Notes under the pieces: model-generated | The model's database searches: none | Told to the model about the DNA's origin: nothing | What the model saw: the letters and a program-made list of their open reading frames with translations, nothing else | Position numbers and translations under genes: made by a program | Source: a virus | Taxonomy: Duplodnaviria > Caudoviricetes | IMG/VR virus record: IMGVR_UViG_3300029288_000079 | Span: 32,001-96,000 of that record | Strand: one strand, 5' to 3' | Length of the DNA: 64,000 bases | Shown: one piece after another, positions 12,991 through 28,715 of the stretch | Numbering within the stretch: the first letter of the stretch is position 1 | How the letters are laid out: each line of letters opens with the position of its first letter

Positions 12991-13629
12991 TTAAAAATCA
13001 TCTTTATGAATTTTTATCTTATCCAAAATCTTCTCTTTCTGAAGTCTAACACATTCTGATGTAGTATGCATGATTGTTGCTACGTCTCTTAACGTCCTAG
13101 CCTCATAAGGTGGATCTAATCCAAATAGAAGTGATATTATAATACGTTCTTTTTCTGAAATATCACTTAAGTATAATTTTACAATATCCTCTGAAGTATT
13201 CCTTATAAAAGAAGTGTCATTATTAAGGTCCTCTATATCCTGAAAATCTCCCTCAAAGGCAGAATTTATAACATTCTCTCTAATCTCCGCAATCTCTTTC
13301 AAATATTGCCCTATCGCAAATCTTATATGATAAAAGCAATAACTAAATACTCTAACCTTATACTTACTTACATCGTATCTTCTTATGCCCTGTATAAGAC
13401 CTACATTTGCCTCTTGTATAACATCCATAACATCTACATTATTTGGAATTGTAAAGTTCCTTAAAAAATATATTACAAATCTCAGATGAGAATTGACCAC
13501 TCTCTCAAAAGCTTCTGCAGATCCAGAGGCTACCTGAAACATTAACTCCCTCTCCTCGGCTGCTTTTAGAGGGATATACTTAGGATGTGCTAATGTTTTA
13601 GTATATTGCTCAAAAACTAAATTATGCAT
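12991..13629 (-). CDS. Phage-encoded sigma-70 family sigma factor
   Basis: Region 1.2 (PLKAAEE), region 2 (SHLRFV...DVIQEANVGLIQGIRRYD), region 4 (TLRDVA...ECVRLQKEK). Confidence 0.88.
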   Translation of the reverse strand: MHNLVFEQYTKTLAHPKYIPLKAAEERELMFQVASGSAEAFERVVNSHLRFVIYFLRNFTIPNNVDVMDVIQEANVGLIQGIRRYDVSKYKVRVFSYCFYHIRFAIGQYLKEIAEIRENVINSAFEGDFQDIEDLNNDTSFIRNTSEDIVKLYLSDISEKERIIISLLFGLDPPYEARTLRDVATIMHTTSECVRLQKEKILDKIKIHKDDF

Positions 13630-13651: not shown

Positions 13652-14821
13652 TTATAACACTGATTTAACGACTGTGGATATGAAATCTATATCTTTTATA
13701 GATAGCCCTGGATGACATGGTAAAACTAATCCTAAAGTATGTAATTTTGTAAGATTCTTAGTAATAAATTTATTTTTTATAAATGGCTGCTGACCTAAAT
13801 TACCACCAGATATGGGTCTAGTCTCTATATTTTCCCTATTTAAAGCAGTTATAACTCTATGCTTCTGATTGATATCTTTACATATAATAGGATACGTAAT
13901 GCAAGATATTTTACTAAACTCATTACCCTTTTGCATATCTAATGTTGTGTTCATAAAATTATGTCTGTAACGCATAAAATTTCTATGCCTATATCCTGCA
14001 ATTTCATCTAATATTTTTAATTGCTCTAGTCCTAAAACAGCATTAAACTCTGTAGATCTAACATTTAATCCTGGGTAATAAAATGTAAATCTAGACATAA
14101 ATTTAGATATACAATACTCAATCTCCATATCATTTCTAACAGAATCCTCCACATCCACAGACCATCCATGACTTCTTATCATTTTTAATAAAATACTAAG
14201 ATCTTTATTATCTGTAGAAACCATCCCACCTTCAATAGTACTTATTTGATGGCCATAATAAAAAGAAAATGTACCTATATCTCCTAAAGTTCCGACATAT
14301 TTATTTTCTGCTTTAGATCCTACTGCAGGACAAGCATCCTCCATTAATAAAAACTTATATTTATTTCTAAGTTTTATAAGCTTACCCATATTCCCTGGAT
14401 ACCCAAGAGTTGGAACATACACCACTAAGGAAATTTTATGTAATATAAGAATTCTTTCAAGATCCTGTATGTCCATACTAAATGTATTTAAGTCTACATC
14501 TACAAATTTAATGTCAAATCCCAATTGTATTGCTGGAGACACTGTTGTAGACCACCCAGCACCGCAGATAGCCACCGTTAGGGGCTTATTCCTATGTATC
14601 AACAATTCTTTAATAGCAGCATAAGCTAATAAATTAGCTGAAGATCCTGAATTCACAAAAGTAGAGTAGGAAGCTCCTAAATGTTTAGACCATTTAGTTT
14701 CAAACTCTTTCACTTTAACACCTTGAGTAAGTCTGGGATATTTACTCAGCCATTTAATAGCCTTATCTATATGATATTTTGGTATAGTATCTTGTGCTAA
14801 ATAATACTTATACTTGCTCAT
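13652..14821 (-). CDS. PLP-dependent NDP-4-keto-6-deoxysugar 3-dehydratase (ColD-like, DegT family)
   Basis: VNSGSSANLL, EDAC and FSFYYGHQISTIEGG, with His at the position of the usual Schiff-base Lys. Confidence 0.8.
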   Translation of the reverse strand: MSKYKYYLAQDTIPKYHIDKAIKWLSKYPRLTQGVKVKEFETKWSKHLGASYSTFVNSGSSANLLAYAAIKELLIHRNKPLTVAICGAGWSTTVSPAIQLGFDIKFVDVDLNTFSMDIQDLERILILHKISLVVYVPTLGYPGNMGKLIKLRNKYKFLLMEDACPAVGSKAENKYVGTLGDIGTFSFYYGHQISTIEGGMVSTDNKDLSILLKMIRSHGWSVDVEDSVRNDMEIEYCISKFMSRFTFYYPGLNVRSTEFNAVLGLEQLKILDEIAGYRHRNFMRYRHNFMNTTLDMQKGNEFSKISCITYPIICKDINQKHRVITALNRENIETRPISGGNLGQQPFIKNKFITKNLTKLHTLGLVLPCHPGLSIKDIDFISTVVKSVL

Positions 14822-16662
14822 GGATTTATCCCTACAATTATATCAGGTAATATCGGATTCTCAAATCCAGATGCAACATCTATAATCATCTCTTTTTTAA
14901 GCTCCTCTCGGTCAAGATAGGGATACATATCTTCCAATGCCGTACTCCAACCCACTAATCTTGGTATATAAGAATGATACTCATGACAATTTACATCACA
15001 TATTACTGTCTCACTTGAGTTCAAAACATCTAATATTTTAGATACTAATTCAGAATTATTATTTATTGTACAAGTCTTAATACCATAAGCTTCAGCTACT
15101 TTAACAAAATCTGGAGGTTTATATCCTACAGGACCACAAGCCTCCGCCCTGCCACCAAAATTAGTCTCTTGAAAGGCCTTGGTAATTCCATATATGTGGT
15201 TGTTAATGATGAATACCTTTACATCTACTCCATAGTTCTTTATAGTTTGGAGTTCTTGAATATTCATATTCATACCCCCGTCACCTATAACACATATAAC
15301 ATTTTGCTTCTTATTAGATGCACACCATGCCCCAATAGATGCGGCAAAAGAAAATCCCATAGGAGAATTTCCATTATTGGTTAAAAACTTCTGGCCTAAC
15401 ATAGTTTCAAAGGCCTGAGACATAATTACAATATTTCCACCACAGTCAGAAATAATAATACTATCCTTATCCACCATACCTGATAATACTCTAGAAAATA
15501 CATAAGGATGTACTATATCTTTAGTATCATAATAAGATTGTTTAATTACATCATACTTGATCTTCCAACCCATAACCTTTTCAGTCCACTGAGAAAAGTC
15601 AGGCATCTCAACAAATTTAGATTTTTCTATATAATCTAAAAGCATATTTAAAAATATGGTAGAATCACAACGAAGATTATAATCAAATACAACCTGTTGT
15701 AATTTTTTCTGAAGATTTGCAATATCAATATCTACAATATATTTCTTTGCACTACGAGCAAATAACTCAGGAGCTCCCCCAGTTATTCTTCCAGATATCC
15801 TAGACCCTATAGCCAACAATAAATCACAATTCTGAATACCTAAATTACGTCCTGACCCACCATATGTTCCAACTCTCCCACCATAATAAGGAAAATCAGA
15901 TGTTACTATGTCCAAAGCATTCCATGTAGGAAAAATAGGTATTTTTAATATATTAGATAACTGTAATAAAAATTTAATGGCCTTGGGATCATGCACACCC
16001 CCTCCTATAAGAAGAGCGGGTCTTTTAGACATGCTTAAATCACTTATAAATGACTTTATAAATCCAAAAATTTGATCTATATCAAATACACTTTCATCTG
16101 GTGAAGAATCATATCCCACTAAATCATCAGTTTCAATCAATTTCTTCTGTATATCTAAGGGTATGTCAAGATGAACCGGACCTGGCCGACCCTCTTGCAT
16201 AATAAATAAGGCTTTTTCTAACTCAAACTTAACATCTTCGGCCTTTGTTATCATAACTGAATATTTTGTTATGGGTTTCATTATACCCACCATATCTGAT
16301 TCCTGAAAACCTACCTGTCGAATAATAGGATCAGGCCTCAAAAACCTAGAGCTTATCTGCCCCGTAATAAATAAGCATGGTACAGAATCATAAAAACAAT
16401 TTCCTACGGGAGTAGTAAAATTCATCCCTCCAGGTCCACTAGTAGCAATAGCTACTCCAAACTTACCAGAAACTTTTGCATATGTTTCGGCTGAGAATCC
16501 CGCAGCCTGCTCATGCATTGTACATACATATCTGGTCTTATCTGTACGGGTGAAAGCATCAAATAAATCACCTACCGCACTACCATAAACACCAAATATA
16601 TCTTTAATACCTTTTTCTGCTATATAGTTAATAATGTAGTCTGCAACCTTTATTTTGGCCAT
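14818..16662 (-). CDS. TPP-dependent acetolactate-synthase-like enzyme (YerE-like sugar C-branching)
   Basis: HEQAA, TSGPG, GRPGPV, GDGG...NN TPP motif; embedded in NDP-sugar genes. Confidence 0.85.
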   Translation of the reverse strand: MAKIKVADYIINYIAEKGIKDIFGVYGSAVGDLFDAFTRTDKTRYVCTMHEQAAGFSAETYAKVSGKFGVAIATSGPGGMNFTTPVGNCFYDSVPCLFITGQISSRFLRPDPIIRQVGFQESDMVGIMKPITKYSVMITKAEDVKFELEKALFIMQEGRPGPVHLDIPLDIQKKLIETDDLVGYDSSPDESVFDIDQIFGFIKSFISDLSMSKRPALLIGGGVHDPKAIKFLLQLSNILKIPIFPTWNALDIVTSDFPYYGGRVGTYGGSGRNLGIQNCDLLLAIGSRISGRITGGAPELFARSAKKYIVDIDIANLQKKLQQVVFDYNLRCDSTIFLNMLLDYIEKSKFVEMPDFSQWTEKVMGWKIKYDVIKQSYYDTKDIVHPYVFSRVLSGMVDKDSIIISDCGGNIVIMSQAFETMLGQKFLTNNGNSPMGFSFAASIGAWCASNKKQNVICVIGDGGMNMNIQELQTIKNYGVDVKVFIINNHIYGITKAFQETNFGGRAEACGPVGYKPPDFVKVAEAYGIKTCTINNNSELVSKILDVLNSSETVICDVNCHEYHSYIPRLVGWSTALEDMYPYLDREELKKEMIIDVASGFENPILPDIIVGINP

Positions 16663-17585
16663 AAATCACTCGCTTTCAATTCATTTATCTCTTCTTCTTT
16701 TATCGGATAGCAAAACTCTTCAGTAGGAAATTTATGAGTCTTAACTTCATATACATAAATCTTTAAAGCCTCTGTTATAATATAAAGCAATCCATCATCT
16801 CTAGTATCCCTACCCAAAGCATTGATACCTTTAGGTGTTTCTGTAATATGACTAACATACTTTTCAGCAACAAAAGTAACATAACATTTAGAGAAATAAG
16901 GTCTAAATGTAGGATATAATCCTAATAGATCATGCATTATCAATAATTGACCATCTACCTTACTTCCAGCTCCAACACCATATACAGGGACATCACTTAC
17001 ACTAGTTATAACTCCACCAGGCTCTGTAGGAATCGCCTCTAATAGAATGGAAAATACCCCAGCATCCCTTAATTTTTGAGCATCCTTCATAGTCTCTAAT
17101 AAATTTTCCACAGTTTTACACTGAACCCTATAACCCCCAAAGGATTGAGTACTTTGAGGAGTAAGTCCCAAATGTCCCATTACCAATATTCCAGCATTAA
17201 CTATAGCCTCTACTCTGGAACAAACTCTTTCACCACCCTCTAGCTTTATGGCATCACATCCAGCTTCTTTTATAAAACGCAACGCACTTCTAATAGCCTC
17301 TTCGTCAGACACTTCATAGGATCCTTGTGGCATATCCCCTATAATAAATGTATTGGGAGCTCCTCTACGAACAGCTTTAGCCATCATAATCATTTCATCC
17401 ATAGTAACAGGATTGGTGGTAGAATAACCATATTGAACCATACCTCCAGAATCTCCAACTAAAATCATATCCACACCAGCTTTTTCAGCACAATATGCTA
17501 AAGGATAATCATACGCAGTAACCCAAGCTATTGGAATTTTTTCTTTTTTCATTTGCTGCAACTTTAATAATGATACCTTTGGCAT
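16650..17585 (-). CDS. panB: Ketopantoate hydroxymethyltransferase homologue
   Basis: TAYD, LVGDS, GDMP, KLEGG, GHLGLTPQ, HDLLG motifs. Confidence 0.9.
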   Translation of the reverse strand: MPKVSLLKLQQMKKEKIPIAWVTAYDYPLAYCAEKAGVDMILVGDSGGMVQYGYSTTNPVTMDEMIMMAKAVRRGAPNTFIIGDMPQGSYEVSDEEAIRSALRFIKEAGCDAIKLEGGERVCSRVEAIVNAGILVMGHLGLTPQSTQSFGGYRVQCKTVENLLETMKDAQKLRDAGVFSILLEAIPTEPGGVITSVSDVPVYGVGAGSKVDGQLLIMHDLLGLYPTFRPYFSKCYVTFVAEKYVSHITETPKGINALGRDTRDDGLLYIITEALKIYVYEVKTHKFPTEEFCYPIKEEEINELKASDLWPK

Positions 17586-17609
17586 AGTTTACTCCTATTT
17601 TATATTTAT

Positions 17610-18950
17610 TTATACAATATCCTTTTTGGGTATCATACTATAAGCTAAAGACTGTAATAATCTCAGCTCACCTATATTTAATGATTCACTTTCCATAATT
17701 CCCGGATATTGTTTACCATATAAGTCCCAATCATTAGTTAAAATCCTAAGACCATATCTTCCTACTTCTGCAGAACGTCTTAAAGCCGTTCCTGGAAAAG
17801 GTACCGCTATAGGGAATGTACAAGAATAAATATCTAAAAATTTTCCCATCTCTATAGATTTCATTGCAGTTTCTCTTGTCTCTCCAGGAAGACCTAATAT
17901 AAAGCTTGCGGCACATGTAATACCCGTCTCTTTTGCAGCTAAAATGGTTTTTTTTATCTGCTCTGATGTATAGGGCTTACCTGTCCTTCTAAGAACACCC
18001 TCATCGGCACTTTCCGCACCAAAAAAAATATAATAACATCCGGCCTCTCTCATTAATTTAAATAGACTGAGATCACATAAATCTATTCTCATCTCACAAG
18101 ACCACTTCAACTTTTTATTAATACCCTTCTTTATAAATTCATTAAATAAATCTATGCTTACATCTATTTTATTATTCTCTATCAAAGTCTCATCAAAAAA
18201 TACCAAAGCCTCACATCCAAAATCTTTTATATTTCTATCTACCTCTTCTATAACAGAATTTACTGATCTAACTATTCTTTTACGACCAAATGGCCTTACA
18301 CAAAACACGCATGTTCCAGGACATCCTCTACTGGTAGAAATAGGCAACTCAAGTTTGGTTCTATGTGGATCAGCACCTGAATAGGAAGATAACTTAAACA
18401 TATCCCATGCAGGAAATGGAAGCAAGTCCAGATTTGTGATTCTTTTAGATATACAACTATTTTTAGTCTTACTACCTATAGTAAGTATATCACCAACATT
18501 TAAATCATTTTCAAAAAAACTAATTATGGATTCCTCAGCCTCTCCACAAAAAGTATAATCAAAGCAAGAAAACTCATTTAAAGTCTCTAATGGCATTGAG
18601 GTAGCATGTGGTCCACCAATAAATGTTTTTATTGAAGGGAAAAGTTCTTTTATTTTTCCTGCTACTGTAGCTGTCTCTTTAATCTGTGTTGTATATCCGG
18701 TAAACCCAATCGCTAAAGGACGATTCCTATTTATAAATTCTATAATATCAGACACATTAAAATTATCTATAAACATATCAATAAATTTGGATTTAATGCC
18801 CCTTTGTTTGGTAGCAGCCAATAAATATGCCATACCTATGTGAGGAGATATTTGACGAGGTGTATCCTTAGATACTTTAAGAGATTCAAAGTATTTTTTT
18901 CTACCTTCAATATCTAATACAACATTTATTAATAAAAGATCCAGATTCAT
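17610..18950 (-). CDS. B12-binding radical SAM enzyme (class B methyltransferase-like)
   Basis: N-terminal B12 domain (GGPHAT), SRGCPGTCVFC, GLPGET, PFPGT. Confidence 0.88.
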   Translation of the reverse strand: MNLDLLLINVVLDIEGRKKYFESLKVSKDTPRQISPHIGMAYLLAATKQRGIKSKFIDMFIDNFNVSDIIEFINRNRPLAIGFTGYTTQIKETATVAGKIKELFPSIKTFIGGPHATSMPLETLNEFSCFDYTFCGEAEESIISFFENDLNVGDILTIGSKTKNSCISKRITNLDLLPFPAWDMFKLSSYSGADPHRTKLELPISTSRGCPGTCVFCVRPFGRKRIVRSVNSVIEEVDRNIKDFGCEALVFFDETLIENNKIDVSIDLFNEFIKKGINKKLKWSCEMRIDLCDLSLFKLMREAGCYYIFFGAESADEGVLRRTGKPYTSEQIKKTILAAKETGITCAASFILGLPGETRETAMKSIEMGKFLDIYSCTFPIAVPFPGTALRRSAEVGRYGLRILTNDWDLYGKQYPGIMESESLNIGELRLLQSLAYSMIPKKDIV

Positions 18951-18956
18951 TAAACA

Positions 18957-19922
18957 CTATGCCTTTATATAATTATTTCTATACCAATCTATTGTTTTCT
19001 CAATACCCTCTTTAATATTTACTTTAGCCTCCCATTCTAAAATATCTTTTGCTTTCTGCACACTAACAATTCTTCTAGGGATCATCGTAGGCTTTGTAGA
19101 ATCATAATTTATAATTGGACTATACCCCACATGATCACAAGCATATTTTATAACATCTTTTACAGTAGATACTTCACCACTAGTTATATTTACCGGATCT
19201 GCATCTGCCTTAAGTTCTACCATTTTAAGGAATCCATCTACAAAGTCTTCAACATAAACAAAATTTCTCTGCTCTGAACCATCTCCCCAAACTTCTAAGG
19301 GATTTTGTATATTAGCTATTTTGTTAACTAACGCTGGAATAACATGACAAGTCTCTAAATTGAAATCATCATGAGGCCCATATAGTGCTGTAGTTCTAGC
19401 AATAGCAAATTTAGTATCACTCTGTCTATGAAATTGCATACAAACCTTTTCAAGGTACCTCTTCATATTCCCTACACCAGAATAGCCTTCCCAAGGTTCA
19501 CCTGTAAAACCATCACACTCCTTAACAAAATCCCAGTCCGGGTACATAGTGGAACTACCTACAAACCCAAACTTCTTAGCCCCACATTCTACTGCTGCAG
19601 ATATTACATTAACTCCTATCGTAATATTATCCCTAACTAACTGTAACTGACCTGTTTTCTGACCCTTAGCACCTTTAATAACAGCAGCTGCATTTATTAC
19701 TATATCTGGTTTTACCCAATTAAAATACTCTAACGTCTGTACATAATTTCTAAGATCAATCTTACCTATAGTTATGCCATCTCCATTATATTTTAAAATT
19801 CTTCGTTTGAATATTAAGGCATATATATTTGCCCCCTCGTAAGATAGTCTTTTAACAAGGTTTTGGCCTAGTATCCCTGTAGACCCTGTGATAATAATAG
19901 TTTTGTTGGTGTAATAACTCAT
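18957..19922 (-). CDS. GDP-L-fucose synthase-like epimerase/reductase
   Basis: TGSTGILG, SSTMYP, YxxxxxMK variant, LYGPHDDF...HVIPAL, VWGDG..RNFVYVED. Confidence 0.85.
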   Translation of the reverse strand: MSYYTNKTIIITGSTGILGQNLVKRLSYEGANIYALIFKRRILKYNGDGITIGKIDLRNYVQTLEYFNWVKPDIVINAAAVIKGAKGQKTGQLQLVRDNITIGVNVISAAVECGAKKFGFVGSSTMYPDWDFVKECDGFTGEPWEGYSGVGNMKRYLEKVCMQFHRQSDTKFAIARTTALYGPHDDFNLETCHVIPALVNKIANIQNPLEVWGDGSEQRNFVYVEDFVDGFLKMVELKADADPVNITSGEVSTVKDVIKYACDHVGYSPIINYDSTKPTMIPRRIVSVQKAKDILEWEAKVNIKEGIEKTIDWYRNNYIKA

Positions 19923-19932
19923 ATGTAATACC

Positions 19933-20976
19933 TCAATATTTTACTTTTTTAGAGTCCATAATTTCTTCATATGTAAATACATTATATCTATTATGAATTA
20001 CATTCTGATTATCTTTAAACCAAGCTACAGTTTTACTAATCCCGTCTGTAAGACCTGTAGAAGGACTAAAACCTAATATATTCCGTGCTTTATCAATATT
20101 CAACACTCTCGCCCCAAATTTACTAGGAAATATAGGTTTCAAATTATCTAAATATGATTCACCAAAACTTTCCGCTATAACTTCAGCTAAAAATAATATC
20201 TTATACCCAGTTCCACTACTTATATTAAAAGCTTCACAATCACCTGAATTTTCTAAAGCTAACAACATACCATCTGCTACATCCTCAGAAAATGTAAAAT
20301 CACGTATCATATAAGGATTGTGTATATCTACGGATTTGTTCTCACTAATCTTATTTATTAGAGATCCTACTACCATTGTGGTATTTATATCAAAATCATC
20401 CCAAGGTCCATAGCAATTACCAGGTCTAACTATAACTATACCCTTCCACCCATATTCATCCCTATAAGCCTCAGTTTGTAATTCTGCCATTCGCTTTGCC
20501 CATGCAGAATATTTATCCCCTGAATTTGGAAGTCCCTCCCACATTGTACTCTCTATAAATGTAGATCCTGGAGCATATACTCCAACAGTACTTGTAAGAA
20601 GATATTTCTCGACATTTAATTTCTTTGAACATTTTAACATATTCATATTTATACGCATGTGAGAATCAAAGAATGTAGCTCCCCTGGATACTCCAATAGC
20701 GTTAGACCCCTTAGATCCTGCCAACTGAAACACAAAATTTGCTCCTGAGTCTCTAATAGCATTATAACATTCATCATAATTAGTCAGATCACACTTAATA
20801 TATTCTGCGTCTAAAAATTGCCTTACTTTGCATTTTATATGACTAAATCTAGATACTGAATCCGCAGATGCTATTGTCACATATGCTCCCGCATCTAAAA
20901 GTTTAGTTACTAAAGGAACTCCTATTAATCCAGTACCTCCTGTAACTAGTACATTCTTACCTTTGTAGAAATTCAT
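19933..20976 (-). CDS. Extended SDR NDP-sugar epimerase/reductase (Fcl-like)
   Basis: TGGTGLIG, YSAWAK, RPGNCYGPWDDF, RDFTFSED. Confidence 0.85.
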   Translation of the reverse strand: MNFYKGKNVLVTGGTGLIGVPLVTKLLDAGAYVTIASADSVSRFSHIKCKVRQFLDAEYIKCDLTNYDECYNAIRDSGANFVFQLAGSKGSNAIGVSRGATFFDSHMRINMNMLKCSKKLNVEKYLLTSTVGVYAPGSTFIESTMWEGLPNSGDKYSAWAKRMAELQTEAYRDEYGWKGIVIVRPGNCYGPWDDFDINTTMVVGSLINKISENKSVDIHNPYMIRDFTFSEDVADGMLLALENSGDCEAFNISSGTGYKILFLAEVIAESFGESYLDNLKPIFPSKFGARVLNIDKARNILGFSPSTGLTDGISKTVAWFKDNQNVIHNRYNVFTYEEIMDSKKVKY

Positions 20977-21992
20977 ATCATGCTCCTCCAATAATTAAGC
21001 AGGTCAAGATTTATATCATCTAGAGTCTTCTTAGGCTCCCAACCTGTTAGCTCTTTGAATTTTGTACAGTCAGGTATCTGCAGAGTAATATCTGTAGGAC
21101 GTATACGAGCAGGATCTATCTCTTCAAAAATAAGTCCTCTAGGTATTTCACTCTTTTGTAACATATTCTCAAGAGCCTCCCCAACAGTACAGGTATGACT
21201 TCCACCAATATTATATACATCACCTAATATACCATGATTAGCCACAATCCAATAAGCCTCCACAGCATCATCTACATGTGCATATGTTCTTACAGAATTT
21301 AGATTACCTACTCTTATAATATAAATGTCCTCCTGACCATGATTAATATCATCTCTACGCCGAATATATAATCTTTCTTGCTGAACTAATTGATATGCAA
21401 ATGAAGATAATGCAAAATTTCTACCTCTGCGACTTCCCTCATGACTAAATAACCTTGTAGTCATTACTTTAAGTCCATATGCATTATAATAAAATTGCCC
21501 CATCAAATCCTGACCTACTTTGCTTATAGAATAAGGATTGGCAGCTCTTATAGGATTAGTCTCTTTTATGGGTATCTCCTCAGGACTAGGATTTCCGTAC
21601 ACTTCACTCGAACTACAATTAACTACAATTGGGTCTATCCCAAAATTGTCCCTAGCAACTCTTAATTCATCTAATAAATTTGTAGTACCTATCACATTAG
21701 TAGTAAGAGTTGCCACAGGAGTAGAAAAACTAGCCATAGGATAACTTTGAGCAGCAAAATGAAATACAAATTCAGGTTTGGCTTGTTTTATAATATTATT
21801 TAAACTACCTCTATCAAGAAGATCAGATTCAAAGAATTTAACTCTATCATTTCCATAAAGATGAGATATATTTCTATCATCACTTCTCCAACGTCTCGTA
21901 GCATATATATTAACATCAGGTACATTTTTTAAAAGATAGTCACACATATGACTACCAACCATACCTGTAATACCTGTTATAAGAATATTCAT
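20973..21992 (-). CDS. gmd: GDP-mannose 4,6-dehydratase
   Basis: ITGITGMVGS, AAQS, SSSEVYG, PYSISK, RLFSHE, VGNLNSVR; start at 21992 (MNILITG). Confidence 0.8.
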   Translation of the reverse strand: MNILITGITGMVGSHMCDYLLKNVPDVNIYATRRWRSDDRNISHLYGNDRVKFFESDLLDRGSLNNIIKQAKPEFVFHFAAQSYPMASFSTPVATLTTNVIGTTNLLDELRVARDNFGIDPIVVNCSSSEVYGNPSPEEIPIKETNPIRAANPYSISKVGQDLMGQFYYNAYGLKVMTTRLFSHEGSRRGRNFALSSFAYQLVQQERLYIRRRDDINHGQEDIYIIRVGNLNSVRTYAHVDDAVEAYWIVANHGILGDVYNIGGSHTCTVGEALENMLQKSEIPRGLIFEEIDPARIRPTDITLQIPDCTKFKELTGWEPKKTLDDINLDLLNYWRSMI

Positions 21993-21993
21993 A

Positions 21994-22677
21994 TTATAAT
22001 CCAAAATTATTTTTTTCACGCTCTGCGTATACTTTTCTGTTTTTATCAAGCTCTGCAGGATTGTTATTCCTCGCATAGGTTTTATCAAAAGTAGATAATC
22101 CTATACTATAATGTCGATGTTTGAAAAGAATCTCGGGAGCATTTATAAGACAACCTGACCTTCTGGAAAGCTCTGTGAAATCATTGTCAGCACACATAGA
22201 TGTATATTTTGGATAAATAAAATATCCAAATTTCTCAAAAAATGCTCTATTCATTATCGGTTGAGTAAACACAATACCATAATCACGAAGTCCATCATGA
22301 GTTCCAATAGATTTGGGTTGATTAAAATTATCCACATCTTTTAACTTTTCAAAAAGACTCTTATCCCAGTTTGTACAGGGTTCTACATCATCCACTACTT
22401 CTACCAAAATCTGTGTTGTCTTTGATATATACTTAGACAAATTATTCACTGCTGCAACTGGATTCCTAGACTCTCCGATATATACAATTGCTTGTACACC
22501 CTTACAAGGTATTTTAAATATATCTTTATAGGTATCTTGTAAAGGATCATCATTATCAACACCTATAAGATACTCAATACTATCAGGATCCAAAGCTGAT
22601 ACTATCCATTTACAGAAATTATCATATGCTATTTTGGGTCTCTCCCTAGTAGGATGTAATATAGATATATTAATCAT
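21994..22677 (-). CDS. GT-A fold glycosyltransferase (GT2-like)
   Basis: ISILHPTRER, VDNDD, VVDD, ADND, HRH. Confidence 0.75.
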   Translation of the reverse strand: MINISILHPTRERPKIAYDNFCKWIVSALDPDSIEYLIGVDNDDPLQDTYKDIFKIPCKGVQAIVYIGESRNPVAAVNNLSKYISKTTQILVEVVDDVEPCTNWDKSLFEKLKDVDNFNQPKSIGTHDGLRDYGIVFTQPIMNRAFFEKFGYFIYPKYTSMCADNDFTELSRRSGCLINAPEILFKHRHYSIGLSTFDKTYARNNNPAELDKNRKVYAEREKNNFGL

Positions 22678-23930
22678 TTTTTAGTCCACTTCTCGCTGTG
22701 ACTTACTGGTTTATACTTATTTATTAATCTATCTCGTTCTTTTAAAATTTCTTTGGAACTAAGATTATTTGTATGTATTACCGATTCACTATTTCCACCC
22801 CTTTTACCATAAGCACCTAGACCTTCATGCTCAAAGTACAAATCTATATCTTTACCTCTGTCGATATCATCCCTAATCATAGTACCTCGATAAGGGTAAT
22901 ACACAGCTATCTGAGCATCATCTATGCCAGAAGTTTCAATGAACCTTTCTGTCTCCCCTATAGTCTCATAAGTCTCTCCAGGAAGTCCGATCATTAAAAA
23001 TGCCTTGCAAGTAATACCATATTTCTTACATAATTGAACAAATTCATAGTTCTGTTTTACTGTAGTTCTTTTATCTACATTATCTAAGATCTTTTGAGAC
23101 CCTGATTCAGCTCCGAAAGCTATTTCTACACACCCAGTATCTGCAAGCATTTTAGCAAATTCTTCTGAAAAATAATTTGCTTGACCATTACATCTATATA
23201 TCAGATCTCTCTTCTTTAATTCATTACATATGGGCCGAGCTTTTTTAATAGAAATTGCAAATAGATCATCAAATAAATATACTCCACCATATCCTAAGGA
23301 TTTTATATCATCTAACTCCTTACAAATATTTTCATGACTTGACCATCTAGCAAAAGATCCCGCAGACTCACAAAACCTACATTTTTGTGGGCACCCAGTA
23401 GAAGTAAGCATTGTAGCAGATTTTCTACCCATCAAATTATAATTATAATGAGATAGTAATTCTCTTGAAATATCTGAAACTCTATCTGGTCTAGACATCG
23501 ATGCCCAATCCTTCTTAGACATTATATCCTTTTCTATCCGAGACCCGGCACCCTTTAATATTTTTATAAGGGATCTCTGTCCATCATCTGTTACAACATA
23601 ATCCCAATCTGCACTATGTACATCAGAAAAATAATGTTTTGCATGTGGACCCCCTATAATAGTAGGCTTCTTAGGAAATAAAGTTTTCCAATTATTTAAA
23701 AATCTATCAGAATCATTTCGTTGTGGGGTCATTACAGATACACCTACATAATCATATTTTTCATACTTAGCCATATTATCAAAATCAAAATCATCCTCTA
23801 ACCCAACTTCATATCCAAATTGTTCTATATAAGATTTCAAATATAATAGGGCAAGTGGAGGATATACCCGATCAGAATCCAAGTAACCACTACGAAGTGA
23901 TACCAATAAAATTGATATTTTTTCATACAT
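22674..23930 (-). CDS. B12-binding radical SAM enzyme
   Basis: PPLALLYL, GGPHA, TSTGCPQKCRFC, GAESGS, GLPGET. Confidence 0.88.
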   Translation of the reverse strand: MYEKISILLVSLRSGYLDSDRVYPPLALLYLKSYIEQFGYEVGLEDDFDFDNMAKYEKYDYVGVSVMTPQRNDSDRFLNNWKTLFPKKPTIIGGPHAKHYFSDVHSADWDYVVTDDGQRSLIKILKGAGSRIEKDIMSKKDWASMSRPDRVSDISRELLSHYNYNLMGRKSATMLTSTGCPQKCRFCESAGSFARWSSHENICKELDDIKSLGYGGVYLFDDLFAISIKKARPICNELKKRDLIYRCNGQANYFSEEFAKMLADTGCVEIAFGAESGSQKILDNVDKRTTVKQNYEFVQLCKKYGITCKAFLMIGLPGETYETIGETERFIETSGIDDAQIAVYYPYRGTMIRDDIDRGKDIDLYFEHEGLGAYGKRGGNSESVIHTNNLSSKEILKERDRLINKYKPVSHSEKWTKK

Positions 23931-24648
23931 TAGTAGTTTCCAAAATATTTCTTCGTATATGGTCAGGAAATTCTACAATACCACTTACGTCATGTGCAGC
24001 TTTAAAGAATCTATCCGGTGGTCCTGGTGGAGCACCTTCTGCAGCCATATCATCATTACAAATCTGTCTTCTTAACCCTCTATTCATTAAGGCAGCATCA
24101 TTTTTTATCCTACAACTATTTTCAAATATTACAATTTCCGGACATACAGGAACACCACCTTCACGACCTTCTGGAGACCAATGATACTTTCTATCAGTCT
24201 TCATTTTTAAACCACCTTTTATCAGTCTGGTAGTAGGACCTCCATTAGACCAATTAAAATAATGATAAGCATCTTTAGCTGTAAAATATAAAGGAAAATC
24301 CCAGTAACTACTTTTTTTAAATATACCTGTTTTAAATATGCCCCCAAAATTTTTTGTAAAAGTCATGTCAGCGTCTGGTAAGAATGTAAAACCCCCTGTA
24401 CAATGAGATAGACCAAAATTTGTTTGAGCTACTGTAAAATCCCATGGTCTTTCAAATAGTTTAATGGGAACACTATCCTTATAAGAATTTATAATCTCTA
24501 TAGTATTATCTTTAGATCCCCCATCTACCAATACAACTTCATGCAACAGATCTCCTAAATCTTGAGATAAATGCTTACAGCACTCCAAGTACCATAAAAT
24601 TACATGCTCTTCGTCCTGACAAATAGTACATATACTTAAACTATTCAT
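23923..24648 (-). CDS. Glycosyltransferase family 2
   Basis: ICQDEE, VDGGSKDNT, PDAD. Confidence 0.8.
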   Translation of the reverse strand: MNSLSICTICQDEEHVILWYLECCKHLSQDLGDLLHEVVLVDGGSKDNTIEIINSYKDSVPIKLFERPWDFTVAQTNFGLSHCTGGFTFLPDADMTFTKNFGGIFKTGIFKKSSYWDFPLYFTAKDAYHYFNWSNGGPTTRLIKGGLKMKTDRKYHWSPEGREGGVPVCPEIVIFENSCRIKNDAALMNRGLRRQICNDDMAAEGAPPGPPDRFFKAAHDVSGIVEFPDHIRRNILETTNV

Positions 24649-24651
24649 TTT

Positions 24652-25386
24652 TTATCTCTTTTTCAAAATACACCAATAGCGATCTGTCTCAATAGCTTCT
24701 TCTTCATATACAAATAATTGAGTACCCAATATAGCTAAATCAACGAAAGCTGGACTAATTCTTACACCATGCCAAGTATTCCCAGGGTCTGATCCTGTAG
24801 AGGATCCTGAAATATCCCTACCATGCATTATAAAAATCCCATCTTTCTTTAGGACCCTACCCACCTCATGAATATAACTTTTGATAATTGAAGCAAATGG
24901 TATATGTTGAAAACAGATATATTCAAAAGCCACATCTATACTATTGTCTGGGATCTTATTTAAATTATAACCATCACCCTCAATAAAAAGTATGTTACCA
25001 CATAAACCCCCCAATCTTTTTTCTGCTATATTTAATAATTCTCCAGAAATATCTAATGCATAAAGATTATAACAAGTTGAGGCAATAAATTGAGACATTC
25101 TTCCAAATCCACAACCTATCTCCAATACATTTTCTATATGAACACCCGAATATCCAAAATACTTTTTAATTCTAGGTAAATATTCACCCTCAAAATCATG
25201 CTTGCCAGAACCTTGAATAGCCTCCTCAGATGCATGTTGATTTGCACAGACATATGATGCCGCATCTGTTATAGCCCTAATATTCCAATCGTCTTTTAAT
25301 ACTTTAGAATATTCATCAATTGATAATTGTTTTGTAGAACTTAGAATCTCACAATCAATAGCTCTATTTTTTACATTTTCTTCCAT
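24652..25386 (-). CDS. Class I SAM-dependent methyltransferase
   Basis: VLEIGCGFGR, LDIS, CFQHIP, RVLKKDG. Confidence 0.88.
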   Translation of the reverse strand: MEENVKNRAIDCEILSSTKQLSIDEYSKVLKDDWNIRAITDAASYVCANQHASEEAIQGSGKHDFEGEYLPRIKKYFGYSGVHIENVLEIGCGFGRMSQFIASTCYNLYALDISGELLNIAEKRLGGLCGNILFIEGDGYNLNKIPDNSIDVAFEYICFQHIPFASIIKSYIHEVGRVLKKDGIFIMHGRDISGSSTGSDPGNTWHGVRISPAFVDLAILGTQLFVYEEEAIETDRYWCILKKR

Positions 25387-25607
25387 ATTAAGTCTCTTAT
25401 AGGTTCATCAATATTAACTCTTGGAATCTCATCTACATCTATAAAATAAACATTATACCTATCTAAAATTTTGTGTACCTTGGAAATTTCCTCGAGTTCC
25501 AACAACATCTTTCTAAGCATATTAAAATAATGAATCTTATCTTCAGCGTCTTTAGCTGTATCACCATTCCAGTTTATTAAATAATTTGTATTCTTCATTG
25601 TATCCAT
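25371..25607 (-). CDS. Hypothetical protein
   Basis: Packed ORF in the operon. Confidence 0.55.
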   Translation of the reverse strand: MDTMKNTNYLINWNGDTAKDAEDKIHYFNMLRKMLLELEEISKVHKILDRYNVYFIDVDEIPRVNIDEPIRDLIWKKM

Positions 25608-25608
25608 A

Positions 25609-26424
25609 TTACACCTTCAACCCTTCCTTCATCTTACTCATAAATTGCTCCCATCCACCCTCTTTAAAATTAGCTATACGCTCTTTCATAACGGTAGGGT
25701 GTGTTCCGGTAAAATGTCTAACTTTATTACCTGCTTTGATAGTCTCTTCAAAAAGATATAAATAATCACAATATTCTTCACCTAGCTTTTCTTTCATCTC
25801 AAGCATTCTTTTATCAGGAAATCCTAGATCAGTATACATATGCTGGAAATCCCATTCCTTCTTAAACCCAACCTTACCCTCATGAACTTTTCCATAATGA
25901 AATATTTCTATATTACTATCGAATACAGGCCCCTCTCCATTTATTAATTGACAAGCATCACCATCCCAAGTCCAACCTTTGCCCTGCCGAGCAATCCTAG
26001 GTACACGTCTATAACAAAAATCAAATTCAGTCTCATAGTTTGCCATAAAATGCGTATAATGCATGGTTGCCAAATTAAAATCCTTTAACAAAGTAATAGA
26101 CTTAACATCTTCAATACTATCATCATGAAGAACTTCATCAGCGTCTAATTTAAGTGTCCACTCAAAATCAGCTTTCTTCATACAATAATTTGCCAAATTA
26201 GATTGTATAGTATAATGAGTTCCCCAAGGCATGTGAATAAGTTTTATTTTAGAGTACTTATCCGCAAGTTTTTGACACAGTTCTATAGTACCATCATCTG
26301 AATCACACTCACACAATATATGTTGATCCACTGCAGGAAGAATAGATTCCACAGATTCCAAAATTGGATAGTCATAAGTTATAGCATTGTGTATAAATGT
26401 GTAAGAACTTATTCCTGGTTTCAT
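25609..26424 (-). CDS. Glycosyltransferase family 2
   Basis: YDYPILESVESI, SDDGT, LDADE, FHYG. Confidence 0.8.
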   Translation of the reverse strand: MKPGISSYTFIHNAITYDYPILESVESILPAVDQHILCECDSDDGTIELCQKLADKYSKIKLIHMPWGTHYTIQSNLANYCMKKADFEWTLKLDADEVLHDDSIEDVKSITLLKDFNLATMHYTHFMANYETEFDFCYRRVPRIARQGKGWTWDGDACQLINGEGPVFDSNIEIFHYGKVHEGKVGFKKEWDFQHMYTDLGFPDKRMLEMKEKLGEEYCDYLYLFEETIKAGNKVRHFTGTHPTVMKERIANFKEGGWEQFMSKMKEGLKV

Positions 26425-26702
26425 TTTTGTTTTTCCTTTAATTGTCTTTCTATCTTATCCCGCAAAGAACTTGTCTCATGACTATAGCCATCTTCACGTC
26501 TTTTAAGTTGATTATTCTTTTCCCGTGTAACCTTCCCAGGATCCTTTGAGTCTATTGAGGTCCCTATCTTAGAATGTATTCTATTGGGAAATAATCTATT
26601 CATAATTGTACCACATTTAACACAAAGTCTAGGAAGTTCTGGATTAGTAATATCCAACTCTTCAAAATCACACTCAGGACATTTAAAATCAAATAGTGGC
26701 AT
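26421..26702 (-). CDS. FmdB-family zinc-ribbon protein
   Basis: MPLFDFKCPEC...CVKCG...MNRLF. Confidence 0.75.
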   Translation of the reverse strand: MPLFDFKCPECDFEELDITNPELPRLCVKCGTIMNRLFPNRIHSKIGTSIDSKDPGKVTREKNNQLKRREDGYSHETSSLRDKIERQLKEKQK

Positions 26703-27631: not shown

Positions 27632-27637
27632 TATTGA

Positions 27638-27865
27638 TTAATAATCAAAATCTAAACTAGGTCTAACTGGCTGCAAAACATTATTAATTGTAAATTGTCT
27701 CCAATAAACTTTAGCTCCAAATAAAATTCTAAATCTCTCTTTCCAAGAAAAACCCCAGCAGCTTGTAACCTGACCATCTTCTGTTTTATGTGCAGGAAGA
27801 GGTATATATGGAGGTTGATCCTTAGCATAAATTATATTGCATTGTATAAAATATATAGGCTTCAT
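27638..27865 (-). CDS. Hypothetical protein
   Basis: AKDQPPYIPLPA...SCW..SWKER...QP pattern typical of small phage proteins. Confidence 0.65.
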   Translation of the reverse strand: MKPIYFIQCNIIYAKDQPPYIPLPAHKTEDGQVTSCWGFSWKERFRILFGAKVYWRQFTINNVLQPVRPSLDFDY

Positions 27866-28245
27866 TTTACATATCCTTCTTCTTGATCATCCTCTTCTTT
27901 TTTACCATCATCTTCTACTTGAACATCATCCTCGCCTTGATTACGATTTATTGCCAAATTTATTTCAACAGAATTAATAATAGGACCTACAAGAGTCTCC
28001 TCTTCAACTTCTTCTCTCGATCTAGCGACTCCCTCAGCTACTGTTTGACCACAGGCTAAACAAACTTTATAACCCTTCATCGTAGCCGTCATATCCTCAG
28101 GATGACTACAAAATTCACCCGGCCTTTTATATAAATTAGAATTGTTAGACACTACTACAGTCCCAGTAATATCCTCTAAAGGCTTGCCCTCAGCAAGCCT
28201 TGCCTTTTCTCTTCGCCATCTCTCTATAGGAGATTCATTTGACAT
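27862..28245 (-). CDS. Hypothetical protein with CSH...CxxC and acidic tail
   Basis: GGAG SD before ATG at 28245. Confidence 0.55.
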   Translation of the reverse strand: MSNESPIERWRREKARLAEGKPLEDITGTVVVSNNSNLYKRPGEFCSHPEDMTATMKGYKVCLACGQTVAEGVARSREEVEEETLVGPIINSVEINLAINRNQGEDDVQVEDDGKKEEDDQEEGYVK

Positions 28246-28249
28246 AAAT

Positions 28250-28513: not shown

Positions 28514-28514
28514 A

Positions 28515-28712: not shown

Positions 28713-28715
28713 AAA

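What the first reader, a model, noticed from the sequence alone, without database searches (positions are those of the whole stretch)
13652..21992. Phage pathway for a branched 3,6-dideoxy GDP-sugar that recruits PanB
Seen: a contiguous run gmd - SDR - SDR - B12 radical SAM - panB - TPP enzyme - His-type PLP dehydratase, with panB, the TPP gene and the dehydratase overlapping. No panC/panD/panE or ilvC/ilvD/ilvH is present. PanB has GDSGGM rather than the usual GDSLGM and a longer C-terminus. Established: Gmd plus ColD give GDP-4-keto-3,6-dideoxymannose; TPP enzymes like YerE add a decarboxylated 2-oxo-acid to C4 of a 4-keto-3,6-dideoxysugar (yersiniose); PanB hydroxymethylates 2-oxo-acids. 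Inference: PanB builds a hydroxymethylated 2-oxo-acid donor, or modifies the acyl branch, giving a C4-branched sugar that is then reduced and C-methylated. I know of no described GDP-linked version of this route, or of one in a phage.
Basis: partly seen in the sequence, partly recalled or inferred. Interest (0 to 1): 0.85.

Follow-up and report, generated by a model that had tools for sequence, protein, structure and literature searches.

The report
Phage branched-sugar pathway using a PanB paralogue
A large uncultured phage carries genes that probably build an undescribed carbon-branched deoxysugar, and its "vitamin B5" (PanB) and "acetolactate synthase" genes belong to a conserved gene pair of sugar clusters, so annotating them as vitamin or amino-acid genes would mislead.

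Summary
The gene run is real, at the stated coordinates, on the minus strand of a complete 182-kb tailed-phage genome.

- **PanB-like gene.** It belongs to a separate clade (GDSGGM, ~30-residue insertion, support 0.935) and keeps all catalytic residues. It coexists with a canonical PanB in 5 of 7 bacterial genomes checked.
- **Gene pairing.** This clade sits beside a thiamine enzyme in 40 of 59 loci, against 3 of 116 for ordinary PanBs. All 17 dereplicated viral loci have the thiamine enzyme within 7 kb.
- **Thiamine enzyme.** The partners form one clade (0.999), apart from true acetolactate synthases. Their nearest solved structures are the YerE-like JanthE and PpYerE.
- **Dehydratases.** 27 of 29 neighbouring DegT-family enzymes carry the ColD/E1-type histidine.
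- **Nucleotide.** Three window enzymes point to GDP. The dehydratase is closest to GDP-manno-heptose 4,6-dehydratase, not classic Gmd.

Best reading (about 0.55): PanB makes a 4-hydroxy-2-oxoacid, and the YerE-like enzyme attaches it to C4 of a GDP-4-keto-3,6-dideoxy sugar. This is a variant of the published "unifying scheme", with PanB in place of the aldolase. No biochemistry exists. This scan found the same pair before in other phages, giant viruses and an archaeon.

The parts
13652..14821 (-). ColD-like PLP/PMP-dependent sugar 3-dehydratase (His in place of the Schiff-base Lys)
   Evidence: PF01041 at 7e-58. Best solved relatives are ColD 2GMS (182 bits) and E1 3BCX (140 bits). His aligns with ColD His188. 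Length is 389 aa against 390 for ColD.
14818..16662 (-). YerE-like ThDP carboligase of the PanB-associated clade
   Evidence: Three TPP domains and a GDG...NN motif. Below every AHAS cut-off (388 vs 538 bits). Best PDB hits are JanthE 8RPH (297 bits) and PpYerE 5AHK (276 bits), against AHAS at 240 or less. Lies in a clade of 27 PanB-adjacent enzymes, support 0.999.
16650..17585 (-). PanB paralogue (GDSGGM clade), a predicted 2-oxoacid hydroxymethyltransferase
   Evidence: PF02548 at 8e-93. Clade of 59 sequences, support 0.935. Catalytic residues kept; G47, G88, E91, F149 and an insertion differ from canonical PanB. AF2 model has pLDDT 87.6 and TM 0.91-0.93 to PanB structures.
17610..18950 (-). 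B12-binding radical SAM enzyme 2 (function open; C-methylation is the likeliest guess)
   Evidence: PF02310 plus PF04055. Far below every NCBIfam cut-off. Best PDB hit is AprD4 at 61 bits. 25% identical to the second copy.
18957..19922 (-). Fcl-like extended SDR lacking the canonical catalytic Tyr
   Evidence: GDP-L-fucose synthase is the best hit at 122 bits. Two alignments put Val or Gly at the Tyr column, and Cys109 becomes Thr. A 'GVG[WN][MT]K' subclade is shared with L003, L004 and L128.
19933..20976 (-). Second extended SDR (non-canonical 'YSAWAK'); candidate branch ketoreductase or epimerase
   Evidence: PF01370 at 9e-39. PDB hits are weak and mixed. Motif. The ATG at 20976 follows a GGAGG.
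20973..21992 (-). GDP-sugar 4,6-dehydratase of the GDP-manno-heptose dehydratase/Rmd type
   Evidence: PF16363 at 6e-68. 7US5 scores 226 bits, 2PK3 165, Gmd about 105, dTDP type 85, CDP type about 52. The Ser/Glu and YxxxK motifs are present.
21994..22677 (-). Small glycosyltransferase-like protein
   Evidence: phrog_14945 glycosyltransferase at 6e-23. ESM Atlas neighbours are viral GT-like clusters. No Pfam hit.
22674..23930 (-). B12-binding radical SAM enzyme 1
   Evidence: PF04055 plus PF02310.
23923..33448 (-). Glycosyltransferase and methyltransferase block. It holds GT2 23923-24648, SAM methyltransferase 24652-25386, GT2 25609-26424, Zn-ribbon 26421-26702, GT1 26702-27631, GT2+GT4 fusion 29077-30960, GT1 30960-32153 and GT1 32162-33448.
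   Evidence: Pfam and PHROG hits. The block is syntenic in related phages L003, L004 and L088.
12991..13629 (-). Sigma-70 family factor, the conserved downstream boundary of the variable sugar cassette
   Evidence: PF04542 and PF04545. Found at the same position in L003 (69% identity), L004 and L088.

Best explanation
The island encodes a pathway for an acyl-branched deoxysugar, which the upstream glycosyltransferases then use. None of the steps below has been shown biochemically; all are inferred from homology and gene context.

1. A host GDP-sugar (GDP-mannose or GDP-D-glycero-D-manno-heptose) is the starting material, because the phage has no nucleotidyltransferase. The 4,6-dehydratase oxidises and dehydrates it.
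2. The ColD-like His-type enzyme removes the C3 hydroxyl, giving a GDP-4-keto-3,6-dideoxy sugar.
3. In parallel, the PanB paralogue enolises a free 2-oxoacid on its Mg site and adds a C1 unit from methylene-tetrahydrofolate. The product is a 4-hydroxy-2-oxoacid: 4-hydroxy-2-oxobutanoate if the substrate is pyruvate.
4. The YerE-like ThDP enzyme decarboxylates that acid and adds the acyl-anion equivalent to the C4 ketone. This creates a tertiary alcohol bearing a 3-hydroxyacyl branch.
5. The two atypical SDRs, the two B12 radical SAM enzymes and the SAM methyltransferase tailor the product.

PanB thus does the job that the class II aldolases (ErwI, MMAR_2331) do in the erwiniose and caryophyllose clusters.
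For: - **PanB clade.** The PanB paralogue forms a clade of 59 sequences (SH support 0.935, stem 0.47). 40 of these lie within 2.5 kb of a ThDP enzyme, against 3 of 116 outside the clade.
- **Adjacency counts.** Of 32 dereplicated loci with both flanks, 19 have the ThDP gene within 300 bp and 24 within 7 kb. All 17 viral loci have it within 7 kb.
- **ThDP clade.** The PanB-adjacent ThDP enzymes form one clade (0.999), separate from true AHAS in the same genomes. Their best solved relatives are JanthE and PpYerE.
- **Dehydratases.** 27 of 29 neighbouring DegT proteins carry the dehydratase-type His.
- **Catalytic residues.** PanB residues D45, S46, D84, K114, E116, H138 and E183 are kept.
- **Free substrate.** Eight loci hold the paralogue without any ThDP gene nearby, seven of them also without DegT or SDR sugar genes within 7 kb. 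Its substrate is therefore probably a free metabolite.
- **Published chemistry.** ErwE rejects pyruvate but accepts 4-hydroxy-2-oxobutanoate, and cluster-encoded aldolases make such donors (PMC9306805). E. coli PanB makes 3-substituted 4-hydroxy-2-oxoacids from many 2-oxoacids (PMC7611260).
- **GDP.** Searches point to GDP-linked substrates.
- **No vitamin or valine pathway.** The phage has no panC, ilvC or ilvD.
Against: - There is no biochemical datum for any member of either clade. JanthE's physiological substrates are unknown (PMC12188165).
- The pocket changes (Leu to Gly, Met to Gly next to the metal ligands) enlarge the site. That would fit a bulkier substrate than pyruvate, possibly a sugar-bound one.
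- Related phages carry the PanB-ThDP pair without any dehydratase (L088, L003), so the acceptor is not always a 3,6-dideoxy sugar.
- Both SDRs are atypical, so the expected YerF-type reduction is not secured.
- The donor 2-oxoacid cannot be named from sequence.
Confidence: 0.55

Rival explanations
1. The PanB paralogue acts on the nucleotide sugar itself. It would hydroxymethylate the acetyl branch after a YerE-type addition of pyruvate, or a carbon next to the 4-keto group. The ThDP enzyme would then use an ordinary donor.
For: Leu47 to Gly and Met88 to Gly beside the metal ligands, plus the 30-residue insertion, enlarge or remodel the pocket. An alpha-hydroxyketone can chelate Mg as a 2-oxoacid does (inference). 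The tight pairing with the ThDP gene fits this reading equally well.
Against: The paralogue also occurs alone in bacterial loci without ThDP genes, which argues for a free substrate. A second, independent PanB lineage with canonical pocket residues (L029, L140) is also paired with the same ThDP clade. All residues that bind the 2-oxoacid carboxylate and metal are kept.
Confidence: 0.2
2. The sugar genes make an unbranched GDP-3,6-dideoxy sugar of the colitose type. The PanB-ThDP pair makes a separate small acyl or aldehyde unit, used as an O- or N-linked substituent or for another product.
For: Dehydratase plus ColD-like plus Fcl-like is formally the colitose gene set. L088 has the pair without sugar-nucleotide genes. 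Two loci have Lys-type aminotransferases instead.
Against: The Fcl-like protein lacks the Tyr and Cys used by GDP-fucose and colitose synthases. The ThDP clade's solved relatives are ketone-accepting YerE-like carboligases. His-type dehydratases accompany the pair in 27 of 29 cases.
Confidence: 0.15
3. These are ordinary auxiliary metabolic genes. PanB boosts host pantothenate and CoA synthesis, and the ThDP enzyme is an acetolactate synthase for branched-chain amino acids.
For: PanB passes the TIGR00222 and NF001452 cut-offs, and the best NCBIfam hit of the ThDP enzyme is AHAS.
Against: The phage has no panC, ilvC or ilvD. The ThDP enzyme is below all AHAS cut-offs and outside the AHAS clade. 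PanB lies in a separate clade that coexists with canonical PanB. Both genes overlap inside a sugar operon.
Confidence: 0.03

Closest known systems
Erwiniose, caryophyllose and gastriose clusters of the 'unifying scheme' for acyl-branched sugars (ErwE/ErwI/ErwF, MMAR_2332/2331, MyGE/MygI/MygF; Steitz et al. 2022, PMC9306805)
   Same: Genes for a 4-keto-3,6-dideoxy nucleotide sugar, a YerE-like ThDP carboligase, a cluster-encoded enzyme that can make a gamma-hydroxy-2-oxoacid donor, SDR-type tailoring and glycosyltransferases.
   Different: The donor-forming enzyme is a PanB paralogue using a C1 unit, not a class II pyruvate aldolase. The sugar enzymes are GDP-type (ColD-like, no E1/E3 pair) rather than CDP-type. 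The SDRs are non-canonical. Two B12 radical SAM enzymes are added. The carrier is a phage.
Yersiniose A pathway (DdhA-D, YerE, YerF) of Yersinia pseudotuberculosis
   Same: 4,6-dehydratase, then a His-type 3-dehydratase, then a ThDP enzyme acting at C4.
   Different: YerE uses pyruvate directly. It is CDP-linked, E1 needs the reductase E3, and there is no PanB.
Ketopantoate hydroxymethyltransferase PanB (E. coli 1M3U, M. tuberculosis 1OY0; PF02548, TIGR00222)
   Same: Fold (TM 0.91-0.93), all metal-binding and catalytic residues, and HMM scores above the curated cut-offs.
   Different: A separate clade with GDSGGM, Gly88, Glu91, Phe149 and a 30-residue insertion. It coexists with a canonical PanB in bacteria, is never next to panC or panE, and is nearly always next to a ThDP enzyme.
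JanthE (Janthinobacterium sp. HH01, PDB 8RPH) and PpYerE (5AHK)
   Same: Best solved relatives of the window enzyme (297 and 276 bits) and of the commoner PanB-adjacent type (436 bits to JanthE). Both are ketone-accepting carboligases.
   Different: JanthE has a CDG ThDP motif, whereas all 25 PanB-adjacent enzymes aligned here have GDG. JanthE's natural substrates and gene context could not be read here.
GDP-L-colitose pathway (Gmd, ColD, ColC)
   Same: GDP-type dehydratase, ColD-like His enzyme, Fcl-like SDR.
   Different: The dehydratase is nearer to GDP-heptose dehydratase. The Fcl-like protein lacks the catalytic Tyr and Cys. A ThDP enzyme and PanB are interposed.

Membership tests
PanB, ketopantoate hydroxymethyltransferase (TIGR00222 / PF02548) | Profile score above the curated cut-off | tested here: met
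   TIGR00222 scores 258 vs 207.55; NF001452 scores 303.8 vs 272. The Pfam match stops at position 236 of 259.
PanB, ketopantoate hydroxymethyltransferase (TIGR00222 / PF02548) | Metal-binding and catalytic residues and the TIM-barrel fold | tested here: met
   D45, S46, D84, K114, E116, H138 and E183 are conserved. AF2 model has TM 0.91-0.93 to 3VAV, 1M3U and 1O68.
PanB, ketopantoate hydroxymethyltransferase (TIGR00222 / PF02548) | Orthology with housekeeping PanB (same clade, single copy) | tested here: not met
   Separate clade, support 0.935. A canonical PanB is also present in 5 of 7 bacterial genomes that hold a cluster-type PanB.
PanB, ketopantoate hydroxymethyltransferase (TIGR00222 / PF02548) | Pocket motif GDSLGM and pantothenate gene context (panC, panE) | tested here: not met
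   The clade has GDSGGM, G88, E91 and F149 where canonical PanB has L, M, Q and L. There is no panC in the phage.
PanB, ketopantoate hydroxymethyltransferase (TIGR00222 / PF02548) | Activity on 3-methyl-2-oxobutanoate with methylene-THF | not testable with these tools
   Needs an enzyme assay or panB complementation.
YerE-like ThDP carboligases (sugar C-branching) | Three-domain ThDP enzyme with a GDG...NN motif, not an AHAS orthologue | tested here: met
   Domains, motif. Below all AHAS cut-offs. Outside the AHAS clade.
YerE-like ThDP carboligases (sugar C-branching) | Closest characterised relatives are YerE-like enzymes | tested here: met
   JanthE 297 bits and PpYerE 276 bits, against AHAS at 240 or less. 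The margin is moderate. Sequences of YerE, ErwE and MMAR_2332 were not available for a tree.
YerE-like ThDP carboligases (sugar C-branching) | Clustered with genes that make a 4-keto-3,6-dideoxy nucleotide sugar | tested here: met
   The dehydratase and the His-type 3-dehydratase are in the same operon. The His type is found in 27 of 29 neighbouring DegT proteins.
YerE-like ThDP carboligases (sugar C-branching) | Accepts a keto sugar as acceptor | not testable with these tools
   Needs in vitro reconstitution.
ColD (GDP-4-keto-6-deoxymannose 3-dehydratase) | DegT fold with His replacing the internal-aldimine Lys; no E1-type extension | tested here: met
   His lies at the ColD His188 column. 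Length is 389 vs 390 aa. ColD scores 182 bits against 140 for E1.
ColD (GDP-4-keto-6-deoxymannose 3-dehydratase) | GDP-hexose specificity | tested here: inconclusive
   Only indirect: the neighbours are GDP-type. The RfbH model scores 196 vs a cut-off of 423.
Gmd (GDP-mannose 4,6-dehydratase, TIGR01472) | Score above the equivalog cut-off | tested here: not met
   132 vs 415 bits. The nearest solved enzyme is GDP-D-glycero-D-manno-heptose 4,6-dehydratase at 226 bits.
Biosynthetic acetolactate synthase (TIGR00118) | Score above cut-off, with a regulatory subunit and ilvC/ilvD partners | tested here: not met
   388 vs 538 bits. No ilvC or ilvD in the genome. The true AHAS of G001 and G007 score 700-765 bits.
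Acyl-branched sugar cluster of the unifying scheme (PMC9306805) | Class II pyruvate aldolase that makes the donor | tested here: not met
   No aldolase in the island. A PanB paralogue occupies that place.
Acyl-branched sugar cluster of the unifying scheme (PMC9306805) | YerF-type NAD(P)H reductase for the branch ketone | tested here: inconclusive
   Two SDRs are present, but both depart from YxxxK.
Class B (cobalamin) radical SAM methyltransferases | N-terminal B12-binding domain plus a radical SAM core | tested here: met
   PF02310 and PF04055 in both proteins. No specific family reaches its cut-off, so the reaction type is open.

The most novel reading that the evidence does not exclude
The PanB paralogue is a new kind of sugar-tailoring enzyme. 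It would form a C-C bond directly on a nucleotide-sugar intermediate (the 4-C-acyl branch or a carbon next to the 4-keto group), using methylene-tetrahydrofolate as a C1 donor. Folate-dependent C-hydroxymethylation of a sugar nucleotide has, to my knowledge, never been described. The enlarged pocket and the clade-specific insertion would serve to bind the nucleotide sugar.
Probability: 0.18. Interest if true: 0.85.

Novelty: new variant of a known kind. Interest (0 to 1): 0.62.

Why it matters
**New chemistry.** The pathway type, YerE-like branching of a 4-keto-3,6-dideoxy sugar with a cluster-made 2-oxoacid donor, has been published. If the reading here is right, a whole clade of "PanB" proteins and a matching clade of "acetolactate synthase-like" proteins form a dedicated two-enzyme module. 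That module would give branched sugars a hydroxymethyl-derived side chain, which has no described structure.

**Spread.** The module is common in large uncultured phages (24 IMG/VR contigs here) and also occurs in bacteria. This scan's earlier notes also report it in archaea and giant viruses.

**Practical points:**
- Both genes pass or approach standard annotation thresholds, so virome surveys will count them as vitamin B5 or amino-acid auxiliary metabolic genes.
- The pairing suggests what kind of physiological donor JanthE-type carboligases may use. These enzymes are being engineered for tertiary-alcohol synthesis while their natural substrates are unknown.
- The cassette between the glycosyltransferase block and the sigma-factor gene differs between related phages. 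That points to selection on a phage-made glycan whose target (virion, host surface or other) is unknown.

Tried and rejected
- Gene contexts of the 120 closest database proteins could not be read, so I used the search for related loci instead.
- **GenBank phages.** Megablast of the region against 50,697 GenBank phage records gave no match. tblastn of PanB and of the ThDP enzyme gave only hits of 44% identity or less (PanB) or 31% or less (ThDP enzyme). Most were host-like DNA or unannotated fragments deposited as phage records. One was 'Microcystis phage MaAM05', whose panB sits with panC and a suf operon.
- **Homoserine idea.** I considered that the paralogue makes 4-hydroxy-2-oxobutanoate for homoserine or methionine, because one Ignavibacteria contig reads metY-metX-PanB paralogue. 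A sample of 201 genomes of that phylum held the paralogue only in that one genome. The adjacency is a single case and is not used as evidence.
- **Bacterial housekeeping idea.** I considered that the paralogue is simply the housekeeping PanB of some phyla. This is rejected because a canonical copy coexists with it.
- **Start-substrate genes.** A nucleotidyltransferase or heptose-pathway genes in the phage would have fixed the starting sugar. None were found.
- **Papers not held.** Krug et al. 2024 (the in silico survey of about 200 YerE-like clusters) and Lanza et al. 2024 (the JanthE discovery) are not in the library. I cannot say whether a PanB neighbour was already noted there. Full-text searches linking PanB or hydroxymethyltransferase with branched sugars, thiamine or auxiliary metabolic genes found nothing relevant.
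- One Pfam call failed on a wrong coordinate.

Full report
**Setting.** The window is bases 32001-96000 of an IMG/VR virus record of 181,733 bp, rated 100% complete by CheckV. All long ORFs lie on the minus strand. The surroundings are those of a large tailed phage: ribonucleotide reductase, a UvsW-like helicase, a baseplate wedge protein and a sigma factor. No GenBank phage record matches the region at the DNA level.

**Observation.** In transcription order the island reads as follows.

| Coordinates | Gene |
|---|---|
| 33448 down to 26702 | glycosyltransferases |
| 25609-26424 | GT2 |
| 24652-25386 | SAM methyltransferase |
| 23923-24648 | GT2 |
| 22674-23930 | B12 radical SAM 1 |
| 21994-22677 | small GT-like protein |
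| 20973-21992 | 4,6-dehydratase |
| 19933-20976 | SDR |
| 18957-19922 | Fcl-like SDR |
| 17610-18950 | B12 radical SAM 2 |
| 16650-17585 | PanB-like |
| 14818-16662 | ThDP enzyme |
| 13652-14821 | DegT-family enzyme |
| 12991-13629 | sigma factor |

The PanB and ThDP genes overlap by 13 nt, and the ThDP and DegT genes by 4 nt. The whole phage genome lacks panC, ilvC, ilvD, any NTP_transferase-family sugar nucleotidyltransferase and any GmhA-type isomerase.

**The sugar-nucleotide enzymes point to GDP.**
- The dehydratase scores 226 bits against GDP-D-glycero-D-manno-heptose 4,6-dehydratase (7US5) and 165 bits against the GDP-linked reductase Rmd (2PK3). It scores about 105 against Gmd, 85 against dTDP-type enzymes and about 52 against CDP-type enzymes.
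- It fails the Gmd equivalog cut-off (132 vs 415 bits). Calling it 'gmd' is therefore too specific, and a heptose substrate is possible.
- The DegT-family protein is closest to ColD (182 bits) and then to E1 (140 bits). It has ColD's length, and its His falls on ColD His188, the residue changed in the H188N entry 3B8X.
- The Fcl-like SDR is closest to GDP-L-fucose synthases (122 bits) and GDP-mannose 3,5-epimerases.
- Because the phage has no activating enzyme, it must draw on a host GDP-sugar pool.

**The ThDP enzyme.** It has the three TPP domains and a canonical GDG...NN motif.
- Its best NCBIfam model is AHAS, but at 388 bits against a cut-off of 538. Every other AHAS model is also missed.
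- Its two best solved relatives are JanthE (8RPH, 297 bits) and PpYerE (5AHK, 276 bits), ahead of AHAS at 240 bits or less. Both are described as YerE-like, ketone-accepting carboligases (PMC12247030, PMC12188165).
- In a tree, 27 PanB-adjacent ThDP enzymes form one clade with support 0.999. They include the window enzyme, those of phage contigs, one from a Chloroflexi MAG and one from a Bacteriovoracales genome.
- That clade is separate from the true AHAS of two of those bacterial genomes (700 and 765 bits to TIGR00118) and from other paralogues.
- The commoner subtype in phage contigs scores 436 bits to JanthE.

**The PanB-like protein.**
- It passes the PanB cut-offs. It has the PanB fold (AF2 pLDDT 87.6; TM 0.91-0.93 to 3VAV, 1M3U and 1O68). 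It keeps D45, S46, D84, K114, E116, H138 and E183.
- Hundreds of database proteins are 60-65% identical to it, whereas solved PanBs are about 35% identical.
- A tree of 175 PanB sequences from the fetched loci places it in a clade of 59, with SH support 0.935 and a stem of 0.47 substitutions per site.
- The clade is marked by Gly47 (canonical Leu), Gly88 (Met), Glu91 (Gln), Phe149 (Leu) and an insertion of about 30 residues. In the model the insertion forms extra helices.
- In five of seven bacterial genomes that hold a cluster-type PanB, a canonical full-length PanB is also present.

**Gene-neighbourhood survey.** Scans of IMG/VR, JGI metagenomes and GTDB genomes gave 49 loci with the paralogue at 55% identity or more, which dereplicate to 43 groups.
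- Of the 32 groups with at least 2 kb on both sides, 19 have a ThDP gene within 300 bp and 24 within 7 kb. 21 have a DegT-family gene and 23 an SDR within 7 kb.
- All 17 viral groups have the ThDP gene within 7 kb, and 15 have the DegT gene.
- In the tree, 40 of 59 clade members are ThDP-adjacent against 3 of 116 outside (Fisher p = 2e-21; the samples are related, so this is only indicative).
- The three outside cases form their own small clade (support 0.997). It includes a Chloroflexi cluster reading ThDP - PanB - ColD-like - SDR - NUDIX - B12 radical SAM - methyltransferase. Its ThDP enzyme groups with the window's. A PanB-family enzyme has therefore been paired with this ThDP clade at least twice.
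- Of 29 DegT proteins near the paralogue, 27 have His at the ColD His188 column. These are either ColD-like, of about 390 aa, or E1-like, of about 445 aa. Only two have the aminotransferase Lys.

**Mechanism.** Steitz et al. (PMC9306805) showed three things. Longer-branched sugars are made by YerE-like enzymes from a 4-keto-3,6-dideoxy sugar and a functionalised 2-oxoacid. The 2-oxoacid is made by an aldolase encoded in the cluster. ErwE rejects pyruvate but accepts 4-hydroxy-2-oxobutanoate, -pentanoate and -hexanoate.

PanB chemistry, the enolisation of a 2-oxoacid and addition of a C1 electrophile, gives exactly this class of 4-hydroxy-2-oxoacids. E. coli PanB does so with many 2-oxoacids and formaldehyde (PMC7611260). 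I therefore read the PanB paralogue as the donor-forming enzyme, replacing the aldolase, and the ThDP enzyme as the C4-branching enzyme.

The paralogue also occurs alone, without a ThDP gene and mostly without sugar genes, in eight bacterial or metagenomic loci. This favours a free-metabolite substrate. Which 2-oxoacid it uses cannot be told from sequence.

The rival, that PanB works on the sugar-bound branch, is kept at about 0.2. Replacing Leu and Met by Gly next to the metal ligands, together with the insertion, would suit a bulkier substrate.

**Tailoring steps are the weakest part.**
- Two independent alignments put Val or Gly, not Tyr, at the catalytic position of the Fcl-like SDR, and Thr at the epimerase Cys.
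- The second SDR reads YSAWAK rather than YxxxK. Both motifs define subclades confined to the window-type cassettes (L003, L004, L117, L128). Every other SDR near the paralogue keeps YxxxK.
- The two B12 radical SAM proteins are only 25% identical to each other. They are far below every NCBIfam cut-off, and the one searched against the PDB is nearest to AprD4 at 61 bits. C-methylation is a reasonable guess and no more.

**Variation among related phages.** L003, L004 and L088 share the glycosyltransferase block and the sigma factor but carry different cassettes between them.
- L004 has the same set as the window in another order.
- L003 has the PanB paralogue with a different ThDP enzyme, a split transketolase, an E1-like pair and an aldo-keto reductase, and no DegT gene.
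- L088 has PanB - radical SAM/SPASM - methyltransferase - ThDP - radical SAM, with no dehydratase.
- The PanB-ThDP pair is the constant element. The acceptor sugar is not.

**Novelty.** I found no paper linking PanB to branched sugars or to phage sugar clusters. PHROGs v4 has no family for the paralogue, and it lists the ThDP enzyme as unknown.

The scan itself has met the same PanB-ThDP pair before on other DNA, in phages, giant viruses and an archaeal glycosylation locus. Those notes agree with this report but are not independent evidence.

I class this as a new variant of a known kind of pathway.

Noticed in passing
window 18957-19922 and 19933-20976; L003:6487-7467, L004:8992-10014, L128:17263-18231, L117:14094-15086: Two subclades of extended SDRs depart from the YxxxK catalytic motif. 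One is Fcl-like, 'GVG[WN][MT]K', with Val or Gly at the Tyr column. The other is '[YF]-x-x-W-x-K'. They occur only in window-type cassettes; all other SDRs near the PanB paralogue keep YxxxK.
   Followed up: partly
L003:8885-17846: A related phage contig (PanB 75% identical) combines three ThDP systems in one cassette: a YerE-like enzyme, a split transketolase and a shortened E1 alpha/beta-like pair. It also has an aldo-keto reductase, and it has no DegT-family gene.
   Followed up: partly
L088:9932-15948: A 194-kb phage contig has PanB paralogue - radical SAM/SPASM - methyltransferase - ThDP enzyme - radical SAM - sigma factor. It has no sugar dehydratase or DegT gene, so the acceptor there must differ or come from the host.
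   Followed up: partly
L006:1067-4367: In one Ignavibacteria MAG contig the PanB paralogue follows metY (O-acetylhomoserine sulfhydrylase family) and metX. This would fit a 4-hydroxy-2-oxobutanoate/homoserine link. However, the paralogue was found in only this one of 201 sampled genomes of the phylum.
   Followed up: partly
L008:5153-10924: A Bacteroidetes MAG has the PanB paralogue directly after two HpcH/HpaI-family aldolase genes and a Lys-type DegT aminotransferase. The paralogue may there tailor an aldolase-made 2-oxoacid.
   Followed up: no
window 26421-26702: A 93-aa zinc-ribbon protein is embedded between glycosyltransferase genes. It is conserved at 75% identity, at the same place, in the related phage L003.
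   Followed up: no
window 33552-34070 and 34657-35382: Two calcineurin-like metallophosphoesterase genes lie just upstream of the glycosyltransferase block.
   Followed up: no
window 37302-41762, 44773-48758, 50733-52841, 59731-63999: Several very long ORFs (558 to more than 1400 aa) near the baseplate gene have no PHROG hit.
   Followed up: no
L087 (G004:C22:41500-44000): The canonical panB-panC region of a Bryobacterales MAG is read in four or more frame pieces each. These are either assembly frameshifts or decaying genes. The PanB paralogue in the same genome is intact.
   Followed up: no
L002 (MW495066.1 253372-273876): The record 'Microcystis phage MaAM05' carries panB, panC, guaD and a full suf operon in a row. 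This looks like cellular DNA rather than phage DNA.
   Followed up: no
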